Positions 30,450 to 44,330 of a stretch of DNA of 64,000 nt are shown here, in pieces. Numbering within the stretch: the first letter of the stretch is position 1; each line of letters begins with the position of its first letter. The position numbers were made by a program, and so were the translations under genes. The notes under the pieces are model-generated. The model ran no database searches, was not told where the DNA came from, and worked only from the letters and a program-made list of their open reading frames with translations. The DNA lies in the IMG/VR virus record IMGVR_UViG_3300027974_001900, positions 53,361 through 117,360 of that record; one strand, written 5' to 3'. This DNA comes from a virus.

Positions 30450-30755
30450 TTAATCCTCGCTTTTAAAAAATATTAAACTATTAACCGCTTTATCGCATAT
30501 GAATAAATCATAAGCTGGTTTACCGAATTTTATTGAATGATATTTGACATTCCAATCACTAAGCTGTTTTTTTGTTATTTGTTCCCAATTTATACCAGTT
30601 AATGTTCCTCTTGCTGTCCAATAAACTATATTATTACCATCGTCATATAGTTTGTTTATTTTTTCAATATTTTGTTTTATAGGAATTGATTTTGCATAAT
30701 TTCTATCTTCTGGTGTTATGCAAATCGTTTCGTCTATATCTACATAGATTATCAT
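30450..30755 (-). CDS. Small HAD-family phosphatase
   Basis: 'YVDIDETIC', 'WTARG', 'GKP..D..ICDKA'. Confidence 0.8.
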   Translation of the reverse strand: MIIYVDIDETICITPEDRNYAKSIPIKQNIEKINKLYDDGNNIVYWTARGTLTGINWEQITKKQLSDWNVKYHSIKFGKPAYDLFICDKAVNSLIFFKSED

Positions 30756-31567
30756 TTTCCTCTCAAAGATTTTTTCTTTTCTATTTCACTTCCGACTAGT
30801 TCTCTTGGGGCTGCACTTCCTAAGGCAGATTCTATATCTCTTATACCTTTTACAAGTTTAATTAAACCTTGAGGCTCAATTGATGCCATATGATCACTAC
30901 CCCACATTGTTCTATCTAAAGTTATGTGTCTTTCAATCCAAGTTACTCCCATCGCAATGGTTGCAAAAGTTGTAACTAATCCATATTCGTGCCCACTATA
31001 TCCAACTTCTTTTTTATATTTTTCTTTTAAAAAGTTAATATAATTTAAATTTAATTCATTTATTTTAGATGGATAGCTAGAATTTGTATGAAAGATAACA
31101 TCAGGATTACCCAAAGATACTGCTTTTTCTATTTCCTCTTCGGTGCTCATACCAGTTGACATGAGCAAATAATCAAATTTTTTTCTAGAATATTGTAATA
31201 ATTCATCTTCTGTTATTAGAGCAGATGGTATCTTACCAATTGATTTAAAATTAGACATAAAGTCTACAGATGGTGTATCCCATACAGATGCAAACCATCC
31301 TATATTATTATTTTTACAGTATTTGTCAATTTCTTGATATTCTTTTTCTTCAAACTCAATCTTCTTTTTGTATTCAATATAAGTCATTTCACCCCACGGA
31401 GTTTGTCTTAACTTATATTTTTGCTCTTCTGGGACGCAAATATCAGGAGTTCTTTTTTGAAATTTTACATAATCACACCCGGCAACTTTTGCGACATCAA
31501 TTAATTTTTTTGCCGTTTCAACACTACCATTGTGATTTATTCCAATTTCAGCTATTATTTTTACCAT
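30752..31567 (-). CDS. neuB: NeuB-family nonulosonic acid synthase (no C-terminal SAF domain)
   Basis: 'IIAEIGINHNG', 'VKFQKR', 'GYSGHE', 'IERHITLDR..WGSDH.AS'. Confidence 0.9.
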   Translation of the reverse strand: MVKIIAEIGINHNGSVETAKKLIDVAKVAGCDYVKFQKRTPDICVPEEQKYKLRQTPWGEMTYIEYKKKIEFEEKEYQEIDKYCKNNNIGWFASVWDTPSVDFMSNFKSIGKIPSALITEDELLQYSRKKFDYLLMSTGMSTEEEIEKAVSLGNPDVIFHTNSSYPSKINELNLNYINFLKEKYKKEVGYSGHEYGLVTTFATIAMGVTWIERHITLDRTMWGSDHMASIEPQGLIKLVKGIRDIESALGSAAPRELVGSEIEKKKSLRGK

Positions 31568-32192
31568 TGTATTTCTCCAAATCTTTTTGATAATCTACAT
31601 CAATAACATTATTAATTGGAAAATAGATTGTATTATCATTATACAGATTTTCATTCAGATTTTTAATTTCTTTTGTTTTAAAAATACAAATAAAATGACT
31701 TAATTCAAAACATTTTGGATAATCTTGCCTTCTGAAGAGGTTATGATTAACTAACTGTTTTCCTTTGTTATCTTCTAATTCATATAACATTAAGAATGGG
31801 TGTGCCTCAACCTTTTTTTTGCATAAAAGTGAGTCAGCATTGTTTGAGGAAAAAAATAAAATTGCCGACTTAACATCTTCCCAAGTTCTTTCTGGATATG
31901 TTAAGTATAGCATTAGTATTATCTCTTGATCATTTATCTTGCAAATATCTACCACATTTTGCAGCACGCTTTTTGTTGATGTTGTATCTTGCGCTAAATC
32001 TTCTTCTCTTTTTAAGAGAAATATATCTTCTGAGAAAAATTTTGCTTGTTCTAGAATGATGTCGTCGTCGCTAGATATAATTACATCTTTTAATTTATCC
32101 TTTGGTATTTTTTCTAATGTATGTAACAAAAGATTTCTGTTTTTAAATGGTAAACCTTTTGAATTTTTTCGAGCAGGTATTATTATTTTCAT
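31548..32192 (-). CDS. neuA: CMP-nonulosonic acid synthetase (acylneuraminate cytidylyltransferase)
   Basis: 'IIIPARKNSKGLPFKN', 'RRQD', 'IDVDY..D'. Confidence 0.85.
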   Translation of the reverse strand: MKIIIPARKNSKGLPFKNRNLLLHTLEKIPKDKLKDVIISSDDDIILEQAKFFSEDIFLLKREEDLAQDTTSTKSVLQNVVDICKINDQEIILMLYLTYPERTWEDVKSAILFFSSNNADSLLCKKKVEAHPFLMLYELEDNKGKQLVNHNLFRRQDYPKCFELSHFICIFKTKEIKNLNENLYNDNTIYFPINNVIDVDYQKDLEKYNGKNNS

Positions 32193-33052
32193 AATAAAAA
32201 TTCACCAAATTCTAATGTATTATACCAAGATTCTTTGTTTAAATTAATAATAGATATCCCTCTATTTTTAGCACTCTCATTAAGAACTTTTATATCATTT
32301 TCAAGATTTGCTCTAATTGGAGTCCAAGAATTTGGACCTAAATCTTTATACATCCAGTCGGTTTTTGTTTTATCTGCGTATCCCTTACTATAATCTAAGT
32401 CCATACCAGAAACATAAATTGGGTTACACCCCATAATTATTGCAAATGCAATCGCATGAAAAGAAACAGTGTCTCCAGTACTATAATGTTCATTGAAATT
32501 TGCTATATTCATTAAATATTCTTGTATTGTAATTCTTGGCGGAATATTCATTGAACAGCATTTGCCATCTGTAGCAAAACCAAAATTTCCTAAATGCCTT
32601 GGCGGTTGCCACATTGAACTGTTGTTACCATAATCTTTAAAATCAAAATTTTTATTTTTTACATAATATTCTTTAAAGTCTCTTAGAATTTGTAAACAAT
32701 CTTTTCCTTTCCAGTGACGTTGATCATACGCAAGCCATTCAAAATTAGCATTTTCTTCAATTAATTTTTTATCTGTAAAATCTCCATCATCGGAAAAAAA
32801 TACAGGTAATTTATTAATATTTAAAAAATTTAAATAATTTTTGATAGCAAATTCTGCATTACTTAATATCCAATAATCTGGCTTATCCTCAAAATAATCC
32901 CACCAATTATTTACAGAAAATCTAATAATATTTTTATTTTTATGCGCATTTATAATTTTTTCTTTGTCGTTATTCAAACTTGGGCCGTGGCCAGCAATAA
33001 CACAAGGAACATTTTTATGTCTATCTAATATGTCTTTATAATCTAATCTCAT
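32189..33052 (-). CDS. Maf/DUF115-like putative nonulosonic acid transferase
   Basis: 'IAGHGPSL' and 'GDTVSFHAIAFAIIMGCNPIYVSGMD' match the DUF115/Cst-type pattern. Confidence 0.65.
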   Translation of the reverse strand: MRLDYKDILDRHKNVPCVIAGHGPSLNNDKEKIINAHKNKNIIRFSVNNWWDYFEDKPDYWILSNAEFAIKNYLNFLNINKLPVFFSDDGDFTDKKLIEENANFEWLAYDQRHWKGKDCLQILRDFKEYYVKNKNFDFKDYGNNSSMWQPPRHLGNFGFATDGKCCSMNIPPRITIQEYLMNIANFNEHYSTGDTVSFHAIAFAIIMGCNPIYVSGMDLDYSKGYADKTKTDWMYKDLGPNSWTPIRANLENDIKVLNESAKNRGISIINLNKESWYNTLEFGEFLL

Positions 33053-33059
33053 ATTATCT

Positions 33060-33947
33060 CTATAGTTTTATTTCCAAAGAATTTATAATTTTATCAAATA
33101 TGATATCATCATAGTTTAAATAATCGTTCATGAATATATCATAATTAATTGTGATATATTCTAACATAGATTTGTATTTCTTTTCAGAAATCTCCTCTTT
33201 TAATATATTAATTAAATCATCTGGGCTATTAAATTTTATTATACCTCTCTCGTCAAAAAATTCTCCAATATTATCACAACCCCAATATACCGGTACTGTT
33301 CCACAGGCAAAACAATCTAATATTTTATCAGCAAAATAATTCTTTCTTTTTGCATTTTCTATAGCAAGTTGAAACATAAAATCCACAGTTCCTTCTGCTT
33401 TTAATTTTATATGTCTATTACATCCATTACCAAATAGTTCTATTTTATCATATGATATTTTTGGTAATAAACTATCCGCTATTATATGTCTTAATCTATG
33501 ACCAAAAAGCCAAGTTTTTTCAGAATATACCATTGAGATAAGTTTATTTTTTTGATGTATCTTACAATCTTTATCTCCAAGACCAGTTGAGTCAGGATTC
33601 ATAAAAATATATTTATTTTTATTTTTTTTTAGTAATTCTTCATCGTGTGTTAAAATTAAATCAAAATTTTTTTCATATTTTTGTATCTCATCATATATGT
33701 GTGGCAATAAATCTCTAGGTTCTTGTAAAATAGCGACTTTAAATTTTGAATTAATAACCTCACTTAGAAAGAAAACTTTATCTGTAAATAAAGTTACGCC
33801 GTCCCAGTTTTTTTCGTTTTTTACATATTGTATTTTTTTTGGAGATCTAAGTTCTCCTGGCACTTCCCCCGCTGCTCTCATAATAGATTCTACAAATGAA
33901 TTTGCATAAACAGAATCGTCTATCATATTAACAGTTAATTTTTTCAT
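33060..33947 (-). CDS. GT10-like (alpha-1,3-fucosyltransferase-like) glycosyltransferase
   Basis: 'FQLAIEN...NYFADKILDCFACGTVPVYWG' is the GT10 motif. Confidence 0.75.
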   Translation of the reverse strand: MKKLTVNMIDDSVYANSFVESIMRAAGEVPGELRSPKKIQYVKNEKNWDGVTLFTDKVFFLSEVINSKFKVAILQEPRDLLPHIYDEIQKYEKNFDLILTHDEELLKKNKNKYIFMNPDSTGLGDKDCKIHQKNKLISMVYSEKTWLFGHRLRHIIADSLLPKISYDKIELFGNGCNRHIKLKAEGTVDFMFQLAIENAKRKNYFADKILDCFACGTVPVYWGCDNIGEFFDERGIIKFNSPDDLINILKEEISEKKYKSMLEYITINYDIFMNDYLNYDDIIFDKIINSLEIKL

Positions 33948-35959
33948 TTTGTCACACCTATTTCTTCAATTTTTGTTTTACAAGCTGCGACTCTTCTTCC
34001 CCACCATAAAATTTCAGTTCCCCAAGAATAATAATCACCATTGAAGTTTTTTGCATTGAATTGCAATTTATTTTGTTTTTCTAACAAATTTTCTTTTTTA
34101 TGTATCACATTATTAATGTTATGTACAAAAGAACTTTCAATCGGATAATTTTTGTTTGGATCTAAAATTGCACATTCTTGATATTTTATTAATTCTTTTA
34201 GCAAAGAATCTGGAATATCAAAATTTTCTTTTATCACTTTATAAACTTCCTCGTAGAATTTTTCTTTATTCTGATTTATTTTCATTGCCGTGGCTTCTTC
34301 AAAATCCCATGCGTAATTTTCTCTTACGTCTTCTACGATTCTTCCCCACGGGAATTTACAATCTAATATTTTGTCTAGAGTATCTGCTGTTTCTTTTAAT
34401 TCATTGCCGATAAAAGTATTTGGATTATTTATCATATATTCAAGAAAAGTGCTATAAAATTTTTTATATGACACATTATATGCTGTTCTCATAAATCTAC
34501 TGATATACTGTAGATATCCTAGATAATGCCCAAACATAAAAAGCCATCTATAATAATGACATTTTTTATATTCATCATGAGTCATGGTATTGCTACCAAC
34601 TACCATCTCTTCTCTTTCAAATTCATTGTGTTTTGTGAGATCAAGATGTTGAAAAGCAGTATAGGTTTCTATAACTTTTAGCCCATATTGTTCCCTATAT
34701 TCTTTGGATCCAAATGGAGTATTTGGCAAAGAGGTGAGAGAATATATTCCGATATAGTTGTGTTGTTCTAATTCTATTATTTGACAAATACCATCAATAA
34801 AACTTTCTAAAGTTTCTTCTGGAAGCCCTAGAATAACCTCCATATAGCTGGGCAATTCTGTTTGATTATATAAATCTAAAAATTCTTTTAATTTTCCATT
34901 GTCAACATTTTTTCTTTTTATTGCTTTTAAAACATTTGGATTCATAGATTGAACTGCTATTGTAATTCCTTTATCCATTTGTGCTTCATAAAAAGTTTTT
35001 GCCAAATCTAATACTTCATCAGCTTTATTTTTAGCCCAATCACAACGGTGTTTTTCTGGATATCCATTTTCTTTTTTCTTTTTTACCAAATATTCAGTTA
35101 CATGTTTATGCTCTGGCAACATACCAAAATTGGAATCTGCATTATAAACAAAAACCACTTTATTATCTGATAACCAATCTACTTCTTTTAGAACTTTTTC
35201 TAAAACTGGAGTTCTAATTCTTTGATAATATTTTGTTCCAATCTCACAAAATGTACACTGATACGGACAGCCCCTAGTTGTTTCAATTGTTGCCTCTAGT
35301 TTATATGGGCAGTCTTTTATTAGTTCATCAAATAGTCCGTTTAAATACGGGCTAGGCATCGTTGATAGGTCTTCTATTCTAGGTCTTACTGATGTTACAT
35401 ACGTATCGTCCTCAAATATTAAATCAGCTGTTTTTATTTCTATTAAATCAATACTATTTTTTATAATATTTTTTATTTTACGGTGTTCTTTATCAATAAG
35501 AGACATTTTTATCGAACAGCCTAGAACATTATGCCACTCTTTTTTGTCTTTAAGATGTTCTAAGAGAATATCTTTAAACGCCTCCTCTCCTTCTCCATGA
35601 ACTATTATATCAACATATGGGTGCTCTTTAAAAAAGTTTTGACTTCTATCAGCAATTGGCGGCTGCCATCCACCATATACAATTATACAATCTGGATACT
35701 TTTCTTTTATTTTTTTCGCCATTTTATTATTAAAATGCCAATTCCAAACAAAAGTATTAAATCCTATTACAGAAGGATTTTTTATTTTTTCTAATATTAG
35801 ATCTATATCTTCTCGATAATAAAACCATCCATCTAATTTATAATTATTAGATATTGTTTCATTTCTTAAACAATTTGACCAAATTAAACCAGTACTATAT
35901 GGTAATTTAACCTGTCCAACTAGTACATCATTTATTTCAAATAGATAAAGATTGTTCAT
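33944..35959 (-). CDS. Cobalamin-binding radical SAM protein
   Basis: 'TTRGCPYQCTFC' (CxxxCxxC); N-terminal B12-binding-like region ('GEGEE'); 'ILGLPEET'. Confidence 0.85.
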   Translation of the reverse strand: MNNLYLFEINDVLVGQVKLPYSTGLIWSNCLRNETISNNYKLDGWFYYREDIDLILEKIKNPSVIGFNTFVWNWHFNNKMAKKIKEKYPDCIIVYGGWQPPIADRSQNFFKEHPYVDIIVHGEGEEAFKDILLEHLKDKKEWHNVLGCSIKMSLIDKEHRKIKNIIKNSIDLIEIKTADLIFEDDTYVTSVRPRIEDLSTMPSPYLNGLFDELIKDCPYKLEATIETTRGCPYQCTFCEIGTKYYQRIRTPVLEKVLKEVDWLSDNKVVFVYNADSNFGMLPEHKHVTEYLVKKKKENGYPEKHRCDWAKNKADEVLDLAKTFYEAQMDKGITIAVQSMNPNVLKAIKRKNVDNGKLKEFLDLYNQTELPSYMEVILGLPEETLESFIDGICQIIELEQHNYIGIYSLTSLPNTPFGSKEYREQYGLKVIETYTAFQHLDLTKHNEFEREEMVVGSNTMTHDEYKKCHYYRWLFMFGHYLGYLQYISRFMRTAYNVSYKKFYSTFLEYMINNPNTFIGNELKETADTLDKILDCKFPWGRIVEDVRENYAWDFEEATAMKINQNKEKFYEEVYKVIKENFDIPDSLLKELIKYQECAILDPNKNYPIESSFVHNINNVIHKKENLLEKQNKLQFNAKNFNGDYYSWGTEILWWGRRVAACKTKIEEIGVTK

Positions 35960-36633
35960 TTTTTTTCTCTAAAAATATTGTGTTTTCTTAAATCGTGATA
36001 TGTTTTATTAGATCCATTATCTTTATTTTCTTTCTGCATTATATCAAAAGCTAATATACCTTGTGCTGCAATCTCTGGCGGCATATACATATTCCATCCC
36101 ATAATAGTAAAGATTTCATCTTCATACATTGTATTTTTATGTGGGTGACGACCTTTTGCCCTAGCGGCTTTAAACCATTCTACTGCTTTTTCGTCATTTG
36201 TCAATATCATTCCGCCTTTTGTAAGTTTTAAAATTTTTTTTCTATGAAAGGATAAACATTGATATGAATCTTTTATATACATATTTTTAGTAAATCTTTG
36301 AGCACTATCATATATCGGATATGGTGATAACTGATATAAACCCGACCATTCAATTTCATTTAATTCAAAATCACACCCAGCATGTTTTATTAACATCGGC
36401 AATGAAACGTATGTATTACATGGTATTTTTATTGTACCATTAGCATTTAAATATTTTAAACACAAAAACAAAGCATCGGTACAATTATCAACAGCAACCG
36501 CAAATTTACTTCCAGCAAATTCTGCAATCTTTTTTTCAAAAATATCAACAGCATCCCAAGGGGTATTTATTTTATATCCTTTTTTTTGTAATTCTTCTAG
36601 AGCATATTCTCTTAATGGATCATATTCTAACAT
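35956..36633 (-). CDS. Short DegT/DnrJ-family PLP aminotransferase
   Basis: 'FEKKIAEF.G..FAVAVDNCTDAL', 'DSAQ', 'LSFHRKK.L...KGGMILT'. Confidence 0.75.
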   Translation of the reverse strand: MLEYDPLREYALEELQKKGYKINTPWDAVDIFEKKIAEFAGSKFAVAVDNCTDALFLCLKYLNANGTIKIPCNTYVSLPMLIKHAGCDFELNEIEWSGLYQLSPYPIYDSAQRFTKNMYIKDSYQCLSFHRKKILKLTKGGMILTNDEKAVEWFKAARAKGRHPHKNTMYEDEIFTIMGWNMYMPPEIAAQGILAFDIMQKENKDNGSNKTYHDLRKHNIFREKK

Positions 36634-36638
36634 TTTAA

Positions 36639-37295
36639 TTATTCCTTATTGAACAGAGTGTAATATTCTCCGGGAGCAAACTTTTTCCCATAAAAACTAA
36701 ATTTTTTCTCTTCTTTGTTATATCTATCATATGGAAGAATTCTAAAGTCAAAACTAACTCTAGTTTTTCCAGTTGTATTAAGTTTATTTCCGTGCCTACA
36801 TCTATTACCGTTAAATATTGCATATTCACCAACAGACATTTCAATTGGCTTATAATCTTCTAAGCCAGGAACCGATTCTATCCATGTACAGTTTGTATCA
36901 TAACACTTTGTTAGTGGAATTTGAAAATTTATTTCCCACTCTGGGTGTCCATGATCTTCATCGTTATCATAGTGCCATTTAGAAACGGCTGTTTGATTTG
37001 GTACTTGAACTCTAAATGATGGAAATGCTTGATAAAGAAAACTTTTACTAAATTGAGGAGCTATAACTTCTTTAACGAAATCTTCATATACTTTTTTTAT
37101 TTCATCCCAATTTTTTAGCTTATCATAAAAAATTTTATGAAAATGTGTTTCTGCTTCGTTTTTTTGTTCTAATTTTTTTGATCCACAAAGCTCTAGATCT
37201 ATTAAGTGTAATTCTGTTAAATCTTTTATTTGATAAAGATCCTCAACTAATTTAACAAAGTCAAATTTTTGTTTTTCATAATTTTTTATAATCAT
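36639..37295 (-). CDS. StrG-like 2OG-Fe(II) dioxygenase
   Basis: HxD 'WHYD', distal His 'RHGN', 'RVSFDFR'. Confidence 0.7.
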   Translation of the reverse strand: MIIKNYEKQKFDFVKLVEDLYQIKDLTELHLIDLELCGSKKLEQKNEAETHFHKIFYDKLKNWDEIKKVYEDFVKEVIAPQFSKSFLYQAFPSFRVQVPNQTAVSKWHYDNDEDHGHPEWEINFQIPLTKCYDTNCTWIESVPGLEDYKPIEMSVGEYAIFNGNRCRHGNKLNTTGKTRVSFDFRILPYDRYNKEEKKFSFYGKKFAPGEYYTLFNKE

Positions 37296-37305
37296 TTATC
37301 TTCTC

Positions 37306-38085
37306 CTAAATTACAATCCAATTTTCTGGTATTAAATCTTTTATATTTAAATGGCTATTTTTATGAGCAAACCAATTTTTTGGAGCAATAATTTGTTTAT
37401 CTTTATTCTGGTTTAACCACGCTGCCCACCACGAAAAAGAACTATTGGCTATTATATTATTTTTTATTTTTGACATTAAATATAAATCTAACACATCGTC
37501 TTGGTTATCTATAAAAATATTTTTATCATTATTAAAAGTGTTTTTGCACCACTCAATATCGTCGCTAAAAAACACAAAACTTTTATCTTTAAAAAGACTC
37601 ATAGATTTATCGTAATACTCTTTATTTAATACAGTATGATAATCAGAAAGCCTTAAATAATCGCCTCTCCTTATGTGAACAGAAACATAATCCTCGGTGA
37701 AAATTTTATCATATTTTTTGTTTATAAAATTTTCAACTTCTTTTATTGGTTTAAAAAGTTCTAATATTTTTTCTCTATTGTGTGAAAAATATTTTTCTGA
37801 TTGGAAATAACCCTTAAGAAGTAAATTTGGTTTATAATCTATTTTTAAATAAGATTGATCTTCTGGTTCATAATGAGTATTCTCAATAAAATTAAAACTA
37901 TCTGTAAAATTTAAATTTTTATAAATAGTTTTAAAGTAAATTTGTGTTTGTTTGTCGCTTGGTATTATACCACTGGACTTGTACGGAAAAACACATTTAT
38001 CATTATTATCTAAAGCCAAAGAATAAGCCGTAGATATTATAAACATCTGATTACCGAGTCTTCCTAGTAATTCTGCCGCTATCAT
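37306..38085 (-). CDS. GT11 alpha-1,2-fucosyl/colitosyl transferase
   Basis: 'GRLGNQMF', 'GYFQSEKYF', 'VHIRRGDY', 'IIANSSFSWWAAWL'. Confidence 0.9.
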   Translation of the reverse strand: MIAAELLGRLGNQMFIISTAYSLALDNNDKCVFPYKSSGIIPSDKQTQIYFKTIYKNLNFTDSFNFIENTHYEPEDQSYLKIDYKPNLLLKGYFQSEKYFSHNREKILELFKPIKEVENFINKKYDKIFTEDYVSVHIRRGDYLRLSDYHTVLNKEYYDKSMSLFKDKSFVFFSDDIEWCKNTFNNDKNIFIDNQDDVLDLYLMSKIKNNIIANSSFSWWAAWLNQNKDKQIIAPKNWFAHKNSHLNIKDLIPENWIVI

Positions 38086-38834
38086 AAATCACCATCAATT
38101 TTATTATATTTTTTTCTATTTCTAATTTCACTTTCCATACTCAATTGAAAGCTATGATTTACTTTATCTTCATTTAAAACATTTGCACGATTATAAACAT
38201 ATAATATATCTCCAATGAACGATGCTCTATTTCCAGCCATTTCTAGAAGTGGAAACATTGCGGCTAGGTCTCCAGCCATAAGATAAAATTGATTATTTTT
38301 ATCTAACAAATCTTCTTTATCTATTTTTTTCCATAATTTATATTTAAAACTTCTTAAATGAGAAGTCATCCAGTTACTTTCTCTAAACAAATTATTTTTT
38401 ATAATCTGCTCTGGTACTTGCCTAGAAAAATTTCCTCTAATTAATGAAGGATATTCTACATAGCTACCATATGACATCCAGCATTTTTTTTCTAAATAAT
38501 TTTTGTTTAAAATTATTAATGTTTCTTTACTATAAAACCAATCATCTCCGTCAAGAACTACTATTACATCTTCTTTCTCGCAAGAAGCATTTTCTATTCC
38601 ATAAAATAAACTAGCTAATGCTCCACGATTTTTATCTGTGTTTAGTAGTTTAAAATTTTTTAAATCTTTAATTTCATCTTCTATAATTTTTTTAGAGTTA
38701 TCTGTAGAAGAATCGTTTACAATAATACAATCAAAGTTTTTATAATCCTGAAGTTTTATACTTCTCAGACAAAGTTTTATCCATTTTTCAGCATTGTACA
38801 TTGGTACAACAATTTTAAATTTTGTATCAATCAT
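38082..38834 (-). CDS. GT2 glycosyltransferase
   Basis: 'IVVPMYNAEKWI..CL.SI..Q', 'VNDSSTDNS', 'LDGDD'. Confidence 0.9.
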   Translation of the reverse strand: MIDTKFKIVVPMYNAEKWIKLCLRSIKLQDYKNFDCIIVNDSSTDNSKKIIEDEIKDLKNFKLLNTDKNRGALASLFYGIENASCEKEDVIVVLDGDDWFYSKETLIILNKNYLEKKCWMSYGSYVEYPSLIRGNFSRQVPEQIIKNNLFRESNWMTSHLRSFKYKLWKKIDKEDLLDKNNQFYLMAGDLAAMFPLLEMAGNRASFIGDILYVYNRANVLNEDKVNHSFQLSMESEIRNRKKYNKIDGDL

Positions 38835-39658
38835 AGTATTCCTAATATTTTATCACATACTTCTTGTCTTTTATTAATCATAAAATTAATTAATTCTTCT
38901 CCGTTCAAATAGAACCAATCTTCATATAAAGCTCCAACTAGTTTATTAGTAAAAACAGTTATATTCATCATTTTTGCTTCTATTACAACCCTAGATAAAG
39001 TTTCTGGCGTTTTAGGTATAAAGCAAAAATAATTATTTTTTCCTAATTTATTTAAGAACTCATAATAATCTTGACTTTCAATCAATTCATAATTTAAATT
39101 TTTATTTTTACAAAAAGAAATTGCTCCAAGAGTATTTTTATGTTCTATAGCGCTTAATAATATAGAACATGCATCTTTTTTTGGATTTTTTATTTTTTCT
39201 CGAACAAATTCTAAATCTTTTAAAGACCAAAGATTACCAGATAAATTTGTAATATTATCTATTTTAAGATTATTGTATATAATATTTTTATGGAAGCTTG
39301 ATTGACAAAAAATAGAAGAAGCATTTTTGTAAAAATCATAGTTAGCAATTTTATCTTCTGAGCATGTAAAATTCTTACAAAGCCCGGGATTTCTATTTTT
39401 TATATACTTATGATCGTGTTCATATAATATATATTTTTTATTATAAAAAAACTTAATTAATTTTTGATCAATCAAACAGAAATTGCTTATAATAAAAAAT
39501 TGATTTTCTTCTATTATTTTTTCATTAATATCAATACTTTTTATTTTTTTAACTTCTATTGATCTTTCTTCTAAAACATTTATTAATTCTCTATCATTTA
39601 GCTCACAGCCTCCTAAAACTTCATCATGAAAAAAATCTGAAATATATACTATTTTCAT
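38831..39658 (-). CDS. Putative GT-B glycosyltransferase
   Basis: 'GGCEL', 'PETLSRVVIEAKMM' (E-x7-E-like). Confidence 0.6.
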   Translation of the reverse strand: MKIVYISDFFHDEVLGGCELNDRELINVLEERSIEVKKIKSIDINEKIIEENQFFIISNFCLIDQKLIKFFYNKKYILYEHDHKYIKNRNPGLCKNFTCSEDKIANYDFYKNASSIFCQSSFHKNIIYNNLKIDNITNLSGNLWSLKDLEFVREKIKNPKKDACSILLSAIEHKNTLGAISFCKNKNLNYELIESQDYYEFLNKLGKNNYFCFIPKTPETLSRVVIEAKMMNITVFTNKLVGALYEDWFYLNGEELINFMINKRQEVCDKILGIL

Positions 39659-40917
39659 TTGTATTCTTGGACATCTTGTTCTAGTTGCTTAAGCCACTCG
39701 TCAATCTCAAACACTTCTTTTTTACAAATTGCTTCTGCTAATAATGTGTATGGATTTTTTTCTTTATCTTTATTAGTTAAGTACTCTTTTAGTTTTTTAG
39801 CTTGTCCTTTAAACCTTCCATAATCCTTAAAACATTCTCTCATGGCAGATTTTGCTCCAAGTGGTCTAACAAACGCCCACTCCGATTCTGAATGTAATAC
39901 TCCGTTCCAAACAACTTCTGGCTGAACTTTTTTAAGATCATAGGGGACATTCGTAAACGCTTTCTTTTTCTTTCCGTCTATCTCTATATATAAAAAGTCT
40001 TTTTGACCAGAATAATCAATAGTAATAACAGGTAATCCACAATAAGCAGCCTCAAACAACGGAAGACCGAATCCTTCACCGTGAGCAAAATTTACAATTG
40101 CTTTAATTTGTGGGTGAATATAAAGATTATGAATTTCATCTTCATTTAAATCTCCATGAACTAAATAAATTTTACATTTTCTATCTGGGTATGGCTTTAA
40201 CAATCCTTGTAGTGCTCTTTCACATGCTATCTTATCTAACAAAGAATTATTTGAATAGTTTACTTTACAAACTAGTCCTACATTATCATTCTTAAACTCT
40301 TCTAAAAACCAGTTAATTGTATTTGGAAGATTTTTTCTTGGACCCCATTGTGCAACACAGAGAAAATTAAAATCATAATCTAGTGGTAACCATTCTTTGT
40401 GATTATCAAAATGTTTAAATTGTTTTATTGGATAACCAACAACCTCAACGGGTTTTTGAAGCTGTAGATCTAGAATTCTTCCGTATTGATCTTGTGCTTT
40501 CCAACTTGTATTAACTAAAGTTTCTTTTGAATGTTCAGAAACAGTAATAATTTTATCACACTCTCTATTACAAATATCAATCCACTCTGGAGCTACTTTG
40601 TTAGTCTCTATACCTGCCGTAATTTCAACTGTAATTGGAGCTTTTCTTTTTAATTCATTAGGTATACCAACATGAACATATACATCAAATTGTCCTTGTT
40701 GATTAACATATTGAACCGTTTTGTTTATAATAGAATCAATCCATTTTCTTTCTTCATTTTCTTCAAACAACCAAGATGTCTGACCCCAGTTTAATGGCAA
40801 TGTGTAAATATCAAAAATATCTTCTTGCAAACGTAGAGATCTTAAAACAAATCTTACATGCTCACCATAGCCAGACTGAGTTAAACCTGGTCCTTCAACT
40901 AATACTTTCTTTTTCAT
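39655..40917 (-). CDS. GT4 glycosyltransferase
   Basis: 'SGYGEH', 'PRKN', 'HGEGFGLPLFEAAYCGLPVI'. Confidence 0.85.
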   Translation of the reverse strand: MKKKVLVEGPGLTQSGYGEHVRFVLRSLRLQEDIFDIYTLPLNWGQTSWLFEENEERKWIDSIINKTVQYVNQQGQFDVYVHVGIPNELKRKAPITVEITAGIETNKVAPEWIDICNRECDKIITVSEHSKETLVNTSWKAQDQYGRILDLQLQKPVEVVGYPIKQFKHFDNHKEWLPLDYDFNFLCVAQWGPRKNLPNTINWFLEEFKNDNVGLVCKVNYSNNSLLDKIACERALQGLLKPYPDRKCKIYLVHGDLNEDEIHNLYIHPQIKAIVNFAHGEGFGLPLFEAAYCGLPVITIDYSGQKDFLYIEIDGKKKKAFTNVPYDLKKVQPEVVWNGVLHSESEWAFVRPLGAKSAMRECFKDYGRFKGQAKKLKEYLTNKDKEKNPYTLLAEAICKKEVFEIDEWLKQLEQDVQEYK

Positions 40918-42438
40918 TATTTAACCTCATTTAGAGTCCAGCGACTATATTGTTTTCTATTTTCCCAAGACCCTCTTTCTTCATAAATCTTGGTCATTAG
41001 TTCTACCCATTTATTTTGGTAGTCAGCAAATCCATAGTGTTTTAAAGCGTGCTCCCTGCCCTTCAGACCGATCTTTTTTCTATCAGTGTGTGAAAGTGTG
41101 TGCATTTTTTCAAGCGCTTGTATAAAGTCTTTACCAGAGACTTTGTCTTCATAAATGTATGGAACTTCTTGTGAACCAATAACATATTGGGCTGCTGGCT
41201 CAATCATTACGCCAAACGTGTCTTCTCCATCTGTAACTTGCTCTTGCAAACCACCAGTTCTTGGAACGATGATTGGTGTTCCGCAATTTAGAGATTCAAG
41301 GGTTGAAAGACCAAACCCTTCCGCATCAGAAGCAGATACAGTTACGTCTGCCATATTATACATTAATCTTAAATGTTCTGGTGGCACTCCTTGATTTGAA
41401 AACAATACTCTACCGTCATCTAATCCACACTCTTTAATAATTGCTTCAAGATCTGGTCCATTAGGATCTTTTGGATTTGTATGCATCAAAAGAACTGCTT
41501 TATCATTTCCTACTCGATCCAAAAACTCTTTAAACCACCAAATGATTGCTCCTGGTTGTTTACGACGAGCATTTCTACTATTCCAAAAAACAAGCATTGT
41601 ATCATCTTTCATATTTGGAAAATGTGCTTTTCTTGCTTTTTTAACTTCATCTTCTGGAAGTGGGAAGAACTGATCTTCTGGAATTGCATGTGGAATGTAA
41701 TGACATTCAATTTCTGGCGATACTGTTCTCACAATGTCATCTGTAACCTTACTGATTGTAGCAATTACATCATTAGAATCATAGAATGGTTTATTAAACT
41801 TTGGATAAGGATAATTATCCCAAACGTGGTAGTAAACCATTGGAACTAAAGGACGAATTTCGTTTGCAATGCTCCATAGCCATCCATAAAATCTTGGATC
41901 TGTCATAAACCAAAGAATATCTGGTTTTTCTGATCTAATAATTGATCGAATGATATTTGGATCGCCAAACCCATCTACAGGAAAAATAGTCCAATCTTCT
42001 TTCCACTCTTCTGTTCTAACTGGTTGATAATTTTGATGCTTGATTGCACCACCTAAAGAAATTACTTGAAATTTTCCTGACTTAAGTAATCCTTCAATAA
42101 AATACTTCGTTTGAGTTGCAACACCGCTTGGCATTACCTAAAAAGTGGACTATATCATCATGAGTAAATCATGTTGGGCGCTGTCGGATCATTACCGTGC
42201 TCTTTTTAGAGTTTAGGCTAACCGTAGTCTCTGAACCTTCACCAGTATTTCTACACAGATGCTTGGCTGCTGATTGTTACAATACTTATGCTTTTCGAGC
42301 ATTCACACTTGCCGTTTCCCGCTATGTTGTAGCGCATAAGTTAGATAATGTTCCAGCAATTCACCCAATTTTATATCCGCCAATGCTTCAAGCTAACGGA
42401 TGGTCTGAGATCGTCAGAACCTTAATTTTTTTCTCCAT
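40917..42438 (-). CDS. GT4 glycosyltransferase split by a group I intron; predicted join(42396..42438, 40917..42136), 420 aa
   Basis: Exon 1 MEKKIKVLTISDHP + T joins exon 2 TA-ATG-CCA in frame to give ...SDHPLMPSGVATQ, restoring the first Rossmann strand; 'RRKQPG' and 'EGFGLSTLESLNCGTP' are GT4 motifs. Confidence 0.85.
42137..42395 (-). ncRNA. Group I self-splicing intron (IA-like, ORF-less, 259 nt)
   Basis: P AATTGCTGGAA (42351-42361), Q AATCAGCAGCC (42265-42275), R GTTCAGAGACTA (42225-42236), S GATGATATAGTCC (42147-42159); P3 TTGGGTG/CGCCCAA; P8 CATGA/TCATG; IGS GCAUUGGCGGAU (42375-42386) pairs with exon 1 AUCCGU (terminal U.G) and exon 2 UAAUGC; ends in G. Confidence 0.9.
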
Positions 42439-43312
42439 ATACACACTCTCTTAGACTGTTTAGTGTTTGTTCGCTGTCTGTTTTATAGTCGTGCTCCCAA
42501 ACAACTACGACTTTATATCCAAGACCTTCTAGGAAGGTTTTTCTATCGCTATCATAACTCCAAATTTGCTCCGCTTTAAGTTTTTTCTTCTTATTAAAAT
42601 AATTTTTTTCATAAAATCTTGGGTCGCAGTGCCAATATGTTCCGTTGAATTCTATTGCCAAATTAATTTCTTTTATAAGAATGTCAACCTTATATTTTTT
42701 TCTAGATTTCTCAATTGCAAAATCAGAAAAAACAGTAAATTCTTTATAATTGGTTTGTATAAATTCTAATATCTCCCTCTGGGGTTTGCTCAGAGATGTG
42801 TGTTTTGCGAGCATATAAGCATTTGATACTCCGTATTTTTTGAGCATCGTTCTTTTCGCTTTTTGTCTCCAAGATTTAGATTTATTTTTATTTATTATAA
42901 AAGGATTATTTTTGCTTATTTTTCCCTTAGAAAATTCTGTTTTACACTTACGACTACAACATTTAGGCTCTTTTCTTCTGCCTTCTGTATAATAGAATTC
43001 TTTTTGACAGTTATCACAAGTCTTTGTCTTTCCACGCTTTTGCTGATTTTTGAGTCTCCAATTGTCATATGTGCCGTCTTTTATATAAGATTTTGATGCA
43101 CAAGAACGGCTACAAAAACCATTTCTTTCGTCTTTTCGAAAGTAAGATTTATTACAAAATTTACAAAATCGTTCTATGGAAAGTTTCTCATCTAATTTTT
43201 TCTTATATGCTAGACGGTATTTTTTTCTACATTCTTCAGAACAACTTTTGGTAGAATGATTTTCAGATTGAAACTCTACGCTACAATTATTACATATTTT
43301 TGTATATTTCAT
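42422..43312 (-). mobile_element. Free-standing homing endonuclease (Vsr/DUF559, EDxHD-like nuclease with Cys-rich DNA-binding repeats)
   Basis: Three CxxC...CSxxC repeats; 'KRTMLKKYGVSN' module; C-terminal 'VDI...AIEFNGTYWH...GYKVVVVWEHD'; stop overlaps exon 1 of the intron-split gene. Confidence 0.8.
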
Positions 43313-43336
43313 ATAATATATAGTGTGGAGTTACAA

Positions 43337-43675
43337 TTATTTTAAGAGTTCAGCGATCAACTCTTCTTTTTTCATCTTCATTAAATTCTTGTGAGGAATT
43401 CCAAGTGTTGATTTAGACATACTACGAAGTTGGTTAATGTCGAGAGTGTCTAGGTACTCCATCTTCTCTTCTAAATTATCTTCCTGTTTTTCTTCTTCTG
43501 CCAGCGCTTTAAGTGTTTCTTCATGCTCAACGATTACTTTATCAATTTGTCTATGAAGGTTTTTATCATCTTTACTGATTCTTACTCCATAGACTCCTTC
43601 AACATAATCATCTCCACCAATTCTATAAGCCTGTCTTAACTTCATTTTATTCGTAGCCATTTTATTTACTTGCAA
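43337..43675 (-). CDS. Hypothetical protein
   Basis: 112 aa; C-terminal 'QLRSMSK.LGI....MKKEELIAELL' resembles a Rho-N/HeH motif. Confidence 0.55.
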   Translation of the reverse strand: MQVNKMATNKMKLRQAYRIGGDDYVEGVYGVRISKDDKNLHRQIDKVIVEHEETLKALAEEEKQEDNLEEKMEYLDTLDINQLRSMSKSTLGIPHKNLMKMKKEELIAELLK

Positions 43676-44330
43676 TCTCCTCTAGTTGTTTAATTTTGTT
43701 ATATAATTCAGGGCATAATTCTTCTACTAAAGATTGATCACCCATATACAATCTTTCGAACCCTTCAGAGAAGTATTCTCTTAGGGATGTAGCGCTGTAA
43801 GGCGTAACATACATTTGTTCCGTGAAATGAGATAATGTATCATAACCTATTTTTTTATAAAATAATATATCTAAAGCCTTACTATATTCTGTCTTTCTAA
43901 AATATTTATCATCCAAAGTATATTTAGCTGATAACTCATTATAGAGTTGTTTTCTCTTTCTTAAAAACTCTTTCTTTAGCAACCCATCTCCGTAGATCTG
44001 TTCTGAGTAGATTTCTTCTAGTGAGTGAGCAGTTTCGTGGATAATATTCTCAATAATATCCTCTTCATCATCTTGAACATTCGTTAGATAGATTATTTTT
44101 TTATCATAGACAGAGTCTACACTTCTGTTATCAAGCGTATCATACTGCCCGATTGCAATTGCAGAAATATTCTTAAAAAAATAAGCGGGCAGAATATTTC
44201 CTACCCGCTTACATACACTGTCCATATTAATTTTCTTTGTTAAGCCATTTTTAAAATACACGGGTATTCTACCGTGAATCATAAAGTGTGCTTTTGGAGA
44301 TTGTTTAATATATTCTGCTAACTTATCCAT
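43662..44330 (-). CDS. Putative zincin metallopeptidase
   Basis: HExxH 'IHETAH' plus downstream 'REYFSEGF'. Confidence 0.6.
   Translation of the reverse strand: MDKLAEYIKQSPKAHFMIHGRIPVYFKNGLTKKINMDSVCKRVGNILPAYFFKNISAIAIGQYDTLDNRSVDSVYDKKIIYLTNVQDDEEDIIENIIHETAHSLEEIYSEQIYGDGLLKKEFLRKRKQLYNELSAKYTLDDKYFRKTEYSKALDILFYKKIGYDTLSHFTEQMYVTPYSATSLREYFSEGFERLYMGDQSLVEELCPELYNKIKQLEEIASK

What the first reader, a model, noticed from the sequence alone, without database searches (positions are those of the whole stretch)
42137..43312. ORF-less group I intron in a phage glycosyltransferase, with a free-standing homing endonuclease abutting the insertion site
Seen in sequence: the GT4 gene appears to start at 42438 (MEKKIKVLTISDHP) and is interrupted after 43 nt by a 259-nt element. 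The element has P/Q/R/S, P3, P4, P7 and P8, plus an IGS that aligns both exons (AUCCGU with U.G; UAAUGC as P10). Splicing restores the frame (SDHP-L-MPSGV). A Cys-repeat + Vsr-like nuclease gene ends inside exon 1, ~26 nt from the splice site. Established: ORF-less introns can be mobilised by adjacent free-standing endonucleases (collaborative homing, e.g. cyanophage S-PM2 psbA intron/F-CphI), and EDxHD nucleases such as I-Bth0305I are Vsr-like. Phage introns normally sit in DNA/nucleotide-metabolism, terminase, lysin or psbA genes. Inference: this is a collaborative-homing pair using an EDxHD nuclease that targets a glycosyltransferase, the first gene of the glycan cluster; I know of no described example.
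Basis: partly seen in the sequence, partly recalled or inferred. Interest (0 to 1): 0.88.

Follow-up and report, generated by a model that had tools for sequence, protein, structure and literature searches.

The report
Mobile intron plus nuclease in phage glycosyltransferase
A sugar-transferase gene of an uncultured phage is split 43 bases after its start by a genuine self-splicing-type (group I) intron, and a separate DNA-cutting "homing" enzyme gene sits directly upstream and travels with it; this is a clear new example of a known kind of selfish DNA, not a new mechanism.

Summary
Observation confirmed. Window 42137-42395 (- strand, 259 nt) is a group I intron: Rfam RF00028 scores 64.1 bits against a cut-off of 50. 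It has a U.G 5' splice site, a terminal G, P1 and P10 guide pairings, and 26 of 78 core pairs covary across 8 relatives. It splits a GT4 glycosyltransferase after a 43-nt exon 1.

The closest relative (L002, 89% identical GT) lacks exactly these 259 nt and also lacks the upstream nuclease gene. Its N-terminus equals the predicted spliced product.

The 296-aa upstream ORF (43312-42422) stops inside exon 1, 26 nt from the splice site. It has three Cys4 zinc-finger repeats and a Vsr/I-Bth0305I-like (EDxHD-type) nuclease domain.

Thirteen other IMG/VR contigs carry the same intron at the same codon. Eleven have a long nuclease ORF or match, and two have only a nuclease remnant.

On the GT tree the intron-bearing alleles are scattered next to empty alleles, which points to mobility. 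Collaborative (trans) homing is the best reading (about 0.6), but cleavage at the intron site is untested.

This scan has already reported the same pair in at least 9 other genomes. My two literature searches found no paper describing it. Verdict: new member of a known kind.

The parts
42396..42438 (-). Exon 1 of the GT4 glycosyltransferase gene. It is 43 nt long: 14 codons plus the first base of a Leu codon.
   Evidence: Sequence read. The same 43-nt exon 1 occurs in 8 relatives. The uninterrupted L002 gene begins with the same residues.
42137..42395 (-). ORF-less group I intron, 259 nt. It has P1, P3-P8, an extended P5, P6a/b and a P7.1/P7.2-like hairpin between P7 and P3'. It has no P2 and no P9 hairpin.
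   Evidence: Rfam RF00028 at 64.1 bits against a cut-off of 50. These bases are exactly absent from L002. Of 78 pairs, 96.1% of cells are paired and 26 pairs covary, against at most 6 in slid controls.
42375..42386 (-). Internal guide sequence. GCAUUG (42386-42381) pairs with exon 2 to form P10. GCGGAU (42380-42375) pairs with exon 1 to form P1, with U.G at the 5' splice site.
   Evidence: Sequence. P1 covaries: exon AUGCGU with guide GCGCAU in L089, and exon UGCCGU with guide GCGGCA in L169.
42148..42229 (-). Span bounded by the two P7 strands that form the guanosine-binding helix: GACUA (42229-42225) and UAGUC (42152-42148). The span encloses P7.1/7.2, P3' and P8.
   Evidence: Helix 11: 5 of 5 pairs are invariant and paired in all 8 sequences. 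These are the Rfam consensus positions.
40917..42136 (-). Exon 2 of the GT4 glycosyltransferase, including the stop codon.
   Evidence: ORF 40917-42134. Pfam Glycos_transf_1 E 1e-13 and Glyco_trans_1_4 E 8e-12. PHROG 2170 glycosyltransferase E 3e-25. 521 relatives in viral contigs.
42422..43312 (-). Free-standing homing-endonuclease gene, 296 aa. Its last 17 nt overlap the GT start in another frame.
   Evidence: ORF. PHROG 22677, 1271 and 3339 (homing or HNH endonuclease families). Absent from L002. Single copy in the record.
42929..43312 (-). N-terminal part of the endonuclease (residues 1-128). It holds three Cys4 repeats, each CxxC...CxxxC, and is the presumed DNA-binding module.
   Evidence: Invariant cysteines C7, C10, C24, C28, C50, C53, C67, C71, C99, C102, C119 and C123 in 8 homologs. 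The AF2 model gives a beta-hairpin plus helix for each repeat. No Pfam family matched this part.
42425..42796 (-). C-terminal Vsr/EDxHD-like nuclease domain (residues 173-296). D210, E221 and H228 are invariant.
   Evidence: The profile against PDB gives Vsr as the top three hits, E 0.011-0.015. Foldseek's top hit is 3r3p (I-Bth0305I), E 2.4e-3, TM 0.70. VIA gives 3hrl Z 11.7, 3r3p Z 11.4 (97 of 97 residues) and 1cw0 Z 10.5. Pfam MTES_1575 and DUF559 both score below their cut-offs.
43313..43335 (-). Short leader upstream of the endonuclease start. It is shared with L003 and absent from L002, and marks the left edge of the inserted cassette.
   Evidence: Alignment A1. The gap against L002 starts at window 43335.

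Best explanation
Window 43335-42137 is a compact selfish cassette inserted at the 5' end of a phage GT4 glycosyltransferase gene. [quoted passage not shown]

Shown:
- The intron has all the sequence and structure marks of a splicing-competent group I ribozyme.
- Removing it restores the conserved GT N-terminus.
- A very close relative has neither the intron nor the nuclease gene.
- The two elements recur together at the same codon in GT genes 35-89% identical to this one.

Inferred (collaborative or trans homing):
- During mixed infection the endonuclease binds through its zinc-finger repeats and cuts through its Vsr/EDxHD-type domain.
- It breaks intron-less GT alleles at or near the intron insertion site.
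- Recombinational repair from the cassette-bearing genome then copies nuclease gene, exon 1 and intron together.
- The intron splits the target, so the carrier is immune, and RNA splicing keeps the GT functional.

Odds: genuine group I intron with these boundaries, about 0.97. Nuclease is a Vsr/EDxHD-type homing endonuclease, about 0.85. The pair moves by nuclease cleavage at the intron site, about 0.6.
For: Intron:
- Rfam scores 64.1 bits against a cut-off of 50.
- U.G at the 5' splice site, a terminal G, and P1 and P10 guide pairings.
- On 8 homologous introns, 78 pairs give 96.1% paired cells. 26 pairs have compensatory changes, against 1-6 in six slid controls, and 0 of 500 shuffles reach the observed value.
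- P1 covaries with the exon in L089 and in L169.

Empty site:
- L002 (89% identical GT, same flanking genes) lacks exactly 42395-42137 and 43335-42445.
- 78 of 80 GT relatives are uninterrupted.

Linkage:
- Of the 80 GT loci, the nuclease occurs in 2 and the intron in the same 2.
- Of 80 nuclease-related loci, the 8 full-length relatives all have the intron downstream. GT follows in the 7 of them whose DNA reaches that far.
- An exact-pattern scan found 13 intron-bearing contigs. Eleven have a long nuclease ORF or match and two (L163, L169) have only C-terminal remnants.
- The nuclease stop lies 8-35 nt before the 5' splice site in 8 relatives. In L173 it lies 73 nt inside the intron.

Mobility:
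- On a quick ML tree of 88 GT rows, the 9 intron-bearing rows need 7 changes of state, and starred branches force at least 5.
- Intron-plus and intron-minus alleles form sister pairs: WIN/L002 (support 99), L032/L045 (100) and L087/L120 (89).

Breaks near the intron site:
- Among sites where L002 and L003 differ, the window matches intron-bearing L003 at exon-2 positions +2 to +11 (5 of 5) and at the last 3 such sites of exon 1.
- It then matches L002 at 10 of the next 13 such sites, +20 to +59.
- The L087/L120 replacement ends at the intron site.

Nuclease family. E221 occupies the position of Vsr Phe62. [quoted passage not shown]
Against: - No cleavage, splicing or RNA evidence exists. No RNA sequencing run was listed for this stretch.
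- L120 has a nuclease with the same zinc-finger N-terminus at the same place but no intron. A nuclease of this lineage can therefore persist without intron-based immunity.
- The window and L003 introns are 93-98% identical, while the nuclease genes are about 80% and the GT about 70% identical at the DNA level. Intron and nuclease may have partly separate histories, or simply different rates of change.
- Exon 1 is mosaic rather than wholly donor-like, and the number of informative sites is small.
- The window's intron lacks P2 and a P9 hairpin.
- The nuclease model is of middling confidence (pLDDT 74, pTM 0.42) and Foldseek's best E-value is only 2.4e-3.
- Pfam MTES_1575 (29.7 bits against 38.2) and DUF559 (20.4 against 20.6) fall below their cut-offs.
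- The general Rfam model reaches its cut-off in only 3 of the distinct family members tested: window, L003 and L087. L086 and L088 score 27-28 bits. L032, L083, L084, L085 and L089 gave nothing.
Confidence: 0.6

Rival explanations
1. Intron-less homing with a hitch-hiking intron. The endonuclease recognises the region of its own insertion, meaning the intergenic spacer or GT start about 45-60 nt upstream of the intron site. Immunity comes from the nuclease-gene insertion or from recoded exon-1 bases. The intron is merely close enough to be co-converted, or it arrived separately.
For: - L120 has a nuclease with the same N-terminal zinc-finger module at the same position and an uninterrupted GT.
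- The nuclease gene replaces the roughly 35-nt spacer and overlaps the GT start.
- The review passages in PMC3984707 describe intron-less homing of free-standing endonucleases as an established pathway.
- Intron and nuclease show unequal divergence between the window and L003.
Against: - All 12 loci with a long Vsr-type nuclease ORF or match, including the window, carry the intron. Both loci with only a nuclease remnant also keep it.
- The switch of informative sites and the L087/L120 breakpoint lie at the intron site, not at the nuclease insertion edge.
- L120's nuclease domain is of a different type (Endo VII/HNH-like, PHROG 1035, E 4e-8). Its cut position need not be the same.
Confidence: 0.22
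2. Endonuclease turnover. The intron once carried its own homing-endonuclease ORF, which was later purged. The present free-standing gene is a later, independent arrival at a hot spot. This is the alternative raised by Barth et al. 2023 (PMC10448857, passages read) for such arrangements.
For: - PMC10448857 proposes this for intron-adjacent endonuclease genes.
- The L087/L120 nuclease-domain replacement shows that turnover does happen at this locus.
- The GT gene is a hot spot for selfish elements. L089 also carries an intein with Hint and LAGLIDADG domains.
- The window intron lacks P9, a loop where ORFs often sit. That point about P9 is recalled and comes from no call.
Against: - None of the intron copies examined (255-303 nt) shows any leftover of an internal ORF.
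- The same nuclease family accompanies the intron across GT genes only 35-40% identical to the window's.
Confidence: 0.08
3. Domesticated or regulatory intron. The intron is kept because splicing controls GT or glycan-cluster expression, and the neighbouring nuclease is inactive or has another role.
For: - The intron sits in the first gene of an 18-kb glycan cluster.
- The nuclease has decayed to remnants in 2 of 14 contigs while the intron stays intact.
Against: - 78 of 80 relatives manage without the intron.
- Its patchy distribution next to empty sister alleles is the pattern expected of a selfish element.
- The nuclease catalytic residues D210, E221 and H228 are invariant in 8 homologs.
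Confidence: 0.05

Closest known systems
Collaborative (trans) homing: the ORF-less psbA intron with the free-standing F-CphI of cyanophage S-PM2 (Zeng, Bonocora & Shub 2009). I saw it only as cited in passages of PMC3984707 and PMC10448857 and in the abstract of PMC6083498.
   Same: [quoted passage not shown] Alleles lacking both exist.
   Different: - The host gene is a GT4 glycosyltransferase, not psbA.
- The nuclease is Vsr/EDxHD-like with zinc-finger repeats. F-CphI uses the Endo VII motif (PMC6083498 abstract).
- Here the nuclease ORF overlaps exon 1.
- Cleavage at the intron site is shown for F-CphI but not here.
Phage T3 gene 5.3 and the phage PhiI DNA-polymerase intron (Bonocora & Shub 2009); T4 mobE with the I-TevIII intron (PMC2790892, abstract seen in the search listing); Vibrio phage ICP1 T5orf172 gene beside the terminase intron (PMC10448857, passages).
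   Same: A free-standing endonuclease gene next to an intron, proposed or shown to mobilise it.
   Different: - Different nuclease families: HNH and T5orf172.
- Different host genes: DNA polymerase, nrdB and terminase.
- Those host genes belong to DNA metabolism or packaging, not glycan synthesis.
I-Bth0305I, prototype of the EDxHD homing-endonuclease family (PMC3239194, abstract and passages read). Per that paper, the family also includes the free-standing Hef-type endonucleases of T4-like phages.
   Same: - A C-terminal Vsr-like nuclease domain: 3r3p Z 11.4, with 97 of 97 residues aligned.
- A conserved Asp and His, and an acidic residue at the Vsr Phe62 position.
- A DNA-binding part N-terminal to the nuclease.
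- Tenacibaculum phage genes annotated 'Hef-like homing endonuclease' match residues 172-228 at 47-49% identity.
   Different: - I-Bth0305I is encoded inside its intron (recA gene, P5 loop) and has NUMOD/HTH motifs.
- This protein is encoded outside the intron and has three Cys4 repeats instead.
- No direct sequence match to 3r3p was found at E up to 10.
Group I introns of Staphylococcus phage endolysin genes and of another phage's capsid gene region.
   Same: About 72% DNA identity over the 120-170-nt catalytic core. The matches lie in an endolysin region with HNH endonuclease genes and next to a major capsid gene.
   Different: Similarity is limited to the conserved core. The host genes are different, and in the Staphylococcus phages HNH endonuclease genes lie within or between the endolysin pieces.

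Membership tests
Group I intron (Rfam RF00028) | Covariance-model score at or above the curated gathering score | tested here: met
   64.1 bits against 50, covering model positions 1-253 of 253
Group I intron (Rfam RF00028) | P1 formed by the 5' exon and an internal guide sequence, with U.G at the 5' splice site; terminal G at the 3' end | tested here: met
   AUCCGU pairs with GCGGAU, U at 42396 pairs with G at 42380, and the last base is G at 42137. P1 covaries in L089 and L169.
Group I intron (Rfam RF00028) | Conserved core helices P3-P8, including the P3/P7 pseudoknot, supported by compensatory changes | tested here: met
   78 pairs, 96.1% of cells paired, and 26 pairs with changes on both sides against 1-6 in slid controls. 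P4 and P7 are invariant, so they say nothing either way.
Group I intron (Rfam RF00028) | Self-splicing with guanosine cofactor | not testable with these tools
   No RNA run was listed. This needs an in vitro splicing assay.
Subgroup IA group I introns | Extra helices P7.1/P7.2 between P7 and P3'. This definition is recalled from Michel & Westhof. PMC3984707 names P7.1/P7.2 only as class-defining peripheral elements. | tested here: met
   Helices 12 and 13 (alignment columns 195-241) lie between P7 and P3'. They are 100% paired, and 3 pairs covary.
Subgroup IA group I introns | P2 and P9 peripheral hairpins, usual in phage IA2 introns (recalled) | tested here: not met
   There is no P2 between P1 and P3. 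Only 10 nt lie between P7' and the terminal G in the window. L083-L086, L088 and L089 do have a P9 hairpin. I therefore call the intron IA-like and do not assign it to IA2.
EDxHD (I-Bth0305I/Hef) homing endonucleases | Vsr-like nuclease fold | tested here: met
   3r3p Z 11.4 (97 of 97 residues), 1cw0 Z 10.5 and 3hrl Z 11.7; the three are tied. Foldseek's top hit is 3r3p, E 2.4e-3. The profile search gives Vsr, E 0.011.
EDxHD (I-Bth0305I/Hef) homing endonucleases | Conserved catalytic Asp and His, a neighbouring Asp, and an acidic residue at the Vsr Phe62 position (PMC3239194 passages) | tested here: met
   D210, E221 and H228 are invariant in 8 homologs. They align to the Vsr Asp, Phe and His positions in the printed HMMER alignment. 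The Vsr residue numbers D51, F62 and H69 come from my offset arithmetic and from recall. D230 is present in 7 of 8 homologs and is Asn in L089.
EDxHD (I-Bth0305I/Hef) homing endonucleases | N-terminal NUMOD/HTH DNA-binding motifs | tested here: not met
   No Pfam family matches residues 1-170. That part instead holds three Cys4 repeats. The protein shares the catalytic domain but not the DNA-binding architecture.
EDxHD (I-Bth0305I/Hef) homing endonucleases | Site-specific double-strand cleavage of the empty allele | not testable with these tools
   Needs a biochemical assay.
Collaborative (trans) homing pair | ORF-less intron with a free-standing endonuclease gene adjacent to the interrupted gene | tested here: met
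   The intron holds no sense-strand ORF of 30 aa or more, and the nuclease ORF ends 26 nt before the splice site.
Collaborative (trans) homing pair | Natural alleles lacking both elements, and joint presence or absence among relatives | tested here: met
   L002 is an empty site. 78 of 80 GT loci have neither element and 2 of 80 have both. Of 14 intron-bearing contigs, 12 have a long nuclease ORF or match and 2 have remnants.
Collaborative (trans) homing pair | [quoted passage not shown] | not testable with these tools
   Only indirect evidence: recombination breakpoints lie at the intron site.
GT4 / Glycos_transf_1 glycosyltransferases | Pfam PF00534 above its cut-off, and an N-terminal Rossmann strand plus Gly-rich loop | tested here: met
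   PF00534 at 51.6 bits against 26.4. The N-terminal strand is supplied only after splicing.

The most novel reading that the evidence does not exclude
The unit that moves may be a single 5'-end replacement cassette made of the nuclease gene, a recoded exon 1 and the intron. Its nuclease gene is neither cleanly free-standing nor intron-encoded: among relatives its stop codon ranges from 35 nt before the 5' splice site to 73 nt inside the intron. Its zinc-finger DNA-binding module can also carry interchangeable catalytic domains at the same locus, Vsr/EDxHD-type with the intron or Endo VII/HNH-type without it (L087 against L120). If so, this family captures intermediate steps in two processes: how free-standing endonucleases merge with introns, and how they swap nuclease domains while keeping target specificity.
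Probability: 0.3. Interest if true: 0.6.

Novelty: new member of a known kind. Interest (0 to 1): 0.45.

Why it matters
Phage group I introns are mostly known from genes of DNA metabolism, packaging, lysis, structural proteins and psbA. Here one sits in a glycan-synthesis gene, showing that any sufficiently conserved coding motif can serve as a homing site.

The family offers many natural allele states: empty, nuclease plus intron, nuclease remnant plus intron, and a domain-swapped nuclease without intron. That makes it a good system for two tests. One is whether a neighbouring endonuclease really mobilises an ORF-less intron. The other is how such pairs fuse into composite mobile introns.

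There is also a practical lesson. Gene callers truncate this GT at MPSGV and miss the 43-nt exon. The general Rfam model also misses most members of this intron family.

Tried and rejected
- Chance ORF gap or natural start at MPSGV: rejected. 78 of 80 relatives encode the N-terminal extension without interruption.
- Single-protein locus scan with the nuclease: found nothing. I repeated it with a 3-sequence alignment.
- RNA evidence: no RNA holder was listed for window 41700-43400.
- Direct sequence match of the nuclease to I-Bth0305I: none at E up to 10 with the single sequence or the profile. The link rests on fold and on Vsr alignment.
- Pfam on the nuclease: only sub-threshold MTES_1575 and DUF559, and nothing for the zinc-finger part.
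- Do more distant Vsr-domain relatives elsewhere also sit beside introns? 0 of 20 sampled loci (of the 72 partial-match loci L090-L161) had an Rfam match at gathering score. blastn with the window intron hit only 8 of the 80 loci L082-L161. This blank is weak, because the Rfam model misses most members even of the GT intron family.
- Target-site recoding in L120: the 78 intron-less sites are so variable at synonymous positions that no inference was possible.
- A pseudo-palindrome (CATC....GATG) around the insertion site in L002: noted by eye. It is confined to the Met-containing clade and was not pursued.
- Tree: the careful treekit search did not finish in 300 s, so the quick IQ-TREE result was used.
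  - Rows used: window, L002-L081, L086-L089, L165, L173 and L120, 88 in all.
  - Left out: L082 and L084 (same contigs as L003 and L032), L083, L085, L163 and L169 (GT cut short), and L164 (same sequence as L165 in the region seen).
- Covariation alignment A4 used 8 of the 14 intron copies. L085 is identical to L086 in the region printed. L163, L164, L165, L169 and L173 were found later.
- Literature: two full-text searches found no paper describing a group I intron in a phage glycosyltransferase gene. Supplements were not available and subscription papers are not covered.


Full report
**What is there.** All genes in this part of the window lie on the minus strand. Rfam's group I intron model (RF00028) matches window 42127-42462 at 64.1 bits, against a gathering score of 50 (E 6e-14), covering the full model. 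It is the only such match in the 117,360-bp IMG/VR virus record that holds the window.

Reading the strand gives this layout:
- An ATG at 42438 opens a 43-nt exon (42438-42396).
- The intron is 42395-42137 (259 nt).
- Exon 2 starts at 42136 and runs into the 405-aa ORF 42134-40917.
- That ORF is a GT4 glycosyltransferase: Pfam PF00534 E 1e-13 and PHROG 2170 E 3e-25.
- The 5' splice site follows a U that pairs with G in a six-pair P1 (exon AUCCGU with intron GCGGAU, 42380-42375).
- Immediately 5' of that guide, GCAUUG (42386-42381) can pair with the first six bases of exon 2 (UAAUGC) as P10.
- The intron ends in G.

**The empty site.** A scan of viral contigs found 521 stretches encoding relatives of the GT, of which the best 80 were kept.
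- In 78 of the 80, the reading frame continues upstream through a conserved N-terminus of the type M-x-K-K-I-K-V-L-T-I-S-D-(H/M)-P-L-S-P-S-G-V-G.
- The closest relative, L002 (89% identical), starts with exactly the residues expected from splicing the window's two exons. It has the same neighbours: PhoH, a 222-aa ORF, a 107-aa ORF, the GT and a second GT.
- A MAFFT alignment of the two regions is 74-92% identical in the flanks. It opens gaps at window 42395..42137 (259 nt, the predicted intron to the base) and at 43335..42445 (the nuclease gene, replaced by about 35 nt of spacer in L002).

**The intron is under selection for structure.** Eight homologous introns with short exon flanks were aligned.
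- RNAalifold recovered P1, P3, P4, an extended P5, P6/6a/6b, a two-part hairpin between P7 and P3', and P8.
- With P7 added as a pseudoknot, 78 pairs gave 96.1% paired cells.
- 26 pairs had changes on both sides. Six slid controls gave 1-6, and 0 of 500 shuffles reached the observed value.
- P4 and P7 never vary, so they say nothing either way.
- P1 covaries with its exon. L089 has exon AUGCGU with guide GCGCAU. L169, an S-D-M-P allele, has exon UGCCGU with guide GCGGCA.
- The hairpin between P7 and P3' is the position of P7.1/P7.2, a mark of subgroup IA (definition recalled).
- The window's copy has no P2, and only 10 nt lie between P7' and the terminal G. It therefore has no P9 hairpin, although several relatives have one. 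I call it IA-like and go no further.
- A caveat on detection: the general Rfam model reached its cut-off only for the window, L003 (54.7 bits) and L087 (71.5 bits). L086 and L088 scored 27-28 bits. L032, L083, L084, L085 and L089 gave nothing.

**The nuclease.** ORF 43312-42422 (296 aa) ends with a stop codon whose last base is 26 nt before the end of exon 1. Its last 17 nt overlap the GT start in another frame.

*Zinc-finger part.*
- Eight homologs share twelve invariant cysteines arranged as three CxxC...CxxxC repeats.
- The AF2 model shows each repeat as a beta-hairpin plus helix. Overall model confidence is pLDDT 74 and pTM 0.42.

*Nuclease domain.*
- The C-terminal third gave only sub-threshold Pfam hits to MTES_1575 and DUF559.
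- A profile of the eight sequences found the three Vsr endonuclease entries as the best PDB hits, E 0.011-0.015.
- Foldseek's best PDB match was the catalytic domain of I-Bth0305I: 3r3p, E 2.4e-3, TM 0.70 on the target.
- VIA-align gave 3hrl Z 11.7, 3r3p Z 11.4 (97 of 97 residues) and Vsr 1cw0 Z 10.5, which are tied.

*Active-site residues.*
- In the printed alignment, invariant D210, E221 and H228 fall on the Vsr catalytic Asp, Phe62 and catalytic His positions. The numbering comes from offset arithmetic and recall.
[quoted passage not shown] They also say the family includes the free-standing Hef-type endonucleases.
- Tenacibaculum phage genes annotated as Hef-like match residues 172-228 at 47-49% identity.

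*What does not fit.*
- The NUMOD/HTH N-terminus of I-Bth0305I is not present.
- The protein therefore shares the catalytic domain of the EDxHD family but not its DNA-binding architecture.

**Intron and nuclease travel together.**
- Among the 80 GT loci, the nuclease is found in 2 (L003, L032), and the intron in the same 2.
- A scan with a nuclease alignment found 114 relatives, of which 80 were kept.
  - The eight full-length relatives (43-75% identical) are all followed by the intron.
  - GT follows in the seven whose DNA reaches that far; L083's contig ends.
  - All eight have a 43-nt exon 1, introns of 255-303 nt, a restored S-D-H-(P/A)-L motif, and a nuclease stop 8-35 nt before the splice site.
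- An exact-pattern scan for the intron core found 13 contigs, five of them new.
  - L164, L165 and L173 have the nuclease.
  - L163 and L169 have only a 94-aa and a 50-aa C-terminal remnant next to an intact intron.
- Counting the window, 14 contigs carry the intron at the same codon position. Twelve have a long nuclease ORF or match, two have remnants, and none has a clean upstream region.
- The GT genes involved are 35-89% identical to the window's.

**Signs of mobility.**
- On a quick maximum-likelihood tree of 88 GT rows, the nine intron-bearing rows need seven changes of state, and well-supported branches force at least five.
- Three intron-bearing rows are sisters of empty alleles: window/L002 (99), L032/L045 (100) and L087/L120 (89).
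- At sites where L002 and L003 differ, the window agrees with intron-bearing L003 at exon-2 positions +2 to +11 (5 of 5) and at the last three such sites of exon 1. It then agrees with L002 at 10 of the next 13 such sites, +20 to +59. Earlier exon-1 sites are mixed.
- Positions +8 to +11 lie outside P10, so RNA pairing does not explain them.
- This short donor-like tract centred on the insertion site is what repair of a break there would leave. However, it rests on few sites.
- The window and L003 introns are 93-98% identical, while the nuclease genes are about 80% and the GT about 70% identical. That may mean separate histories or only different rates of change.

**A relevant exception.** L120 is nearly identical to L087 in the GT and upstream genes (about 85-97% DNA identity). 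It has no intron. Its 214-aa upstream ORF shares only the first roughly 77 residues (the zinc-finger repeats) with the L087 nuclease. The rest matches PHROG 1035 'endonuclease VII' (E 4e-8) and an HNH family. The replaced segment runs from inside the nuclease gene to the intron insertion site. This has two consequences:
- Nuclease domains are exchanged on a common DNA-binding module at this locus.
- A nuclease of this lineage can exist without the intron, which keeps the 'intron-less homing' rival alive.

**Comparison with what is known.**
- The arrangement is that of collaborative or trans homing. PMC3984707 (passages) and PMC10448857 (passages) describe it for F-CphI with the S-PM2 psbA intron, for T3 and T7-like phages, for T4 mobE with the I-TevIII intron, and for the ICP1 terminase intron.
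- F-CphI uses an Endo VII motif (PMC6083498, abstract), so the nuclease here belongs to another family.
- PMC10448857 also raises endonuclease turnover as an alternative origin.
- Two full-text searches found no paper on a group I intron in a phage glycosyltransferase gene. Supplements and subscription journals were not searchable.
- Within this scan, the same intron-nuclease pair has already been reported and followed up in at least nine other genomes, with the same verdict.

**Verdict.**
- The one defining step of collaborative homing, cleavage of the empty allele at the intron site, is untested.
- This is a well-documented new member of a known kind of mobile element, in an unusual host gene and with an unusual nuclease architecture.
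- It is moderately interesting, mainly as an experimental system.

Noticed in passing
L120:2480-3124 compared with L087:2486-3361: At the same place upstream of a nearly identical but intron-less GT, a 214-aa ORF shares only the first ~77 residues (zinc-finger repeats) with the Vsr-type nuclease. The rest matches PHROG 1035 'endonuclease VII' and HNH families. This looks like a natural nuclease-domain swap whose right breakpoint is the intron insertion site.
   Followed up: partly
L173:615-1640; L163:2843-3127: In these relatives the nuclease reading frame runs through all of exon 1 (in another frame) and on into the intron, ending 73 nt inside it in L173. The gene is therefore neither cleanly free-standing nor intron-encoded.
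   Followed up: partly
L163:2843-3127 and L169:1245-1397: Only C-terminal remnants of the nuclease (94 aa and 50 aa) remain beside intact introns. This is the decay stage expected in a homing cycle.
   Followed up: partly
L089:3702-5876 (about residues 277-670 of the ORF): The distant GT homolog that carries the intron and nuclease also contains an intein: Pfam Hint_2 at 31.9 bits and LAGLIDADG_3 at 25.4 bits, both above their cut-offs. It is inserted just before the conserved EGFG motif. One GT gene has thus been invaded by two kinds of selfish element.
   Followed up: partly
window 30752-42438: The interrupted GT heads a glycan-synthesis cluster: a second GT4, then GT2, GT11, DegT aminotransferase, B12-radical-SAM, GT10, MptE-like, a cytidylyltransferase and NeuB.
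   Followed up: partly
window 43662-44330: A 222-aa ORF conserved next to PhoH in the relatives contains an HExxH-like motif. It gives only a sub-threshold Pfam hit to the ATLF domain family (23.2 bits against 27.4). It is probably a zincin-like peptidase and was not examined.
   Followed up: no
L029:677-1017: A full-length tmRNA gene (Rfam RF00023, 109.6 bits) lies on a viral contig about 3 kb upstream of its GT gene.
   Followed up: no
L003:2024-2797 and equivalents in L032, L120, L165, L169, L173: In most relatives a PD-(D/E)XK nuclease gene (Pfam PDDEXK_1, E 6e-16) with a C-terminal Cys cluster lies directly upstream of the homing-endonuclease gene. The window and L002 have a Rho_N-like 107-112-aa ORF there instead.
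   Followed up: no
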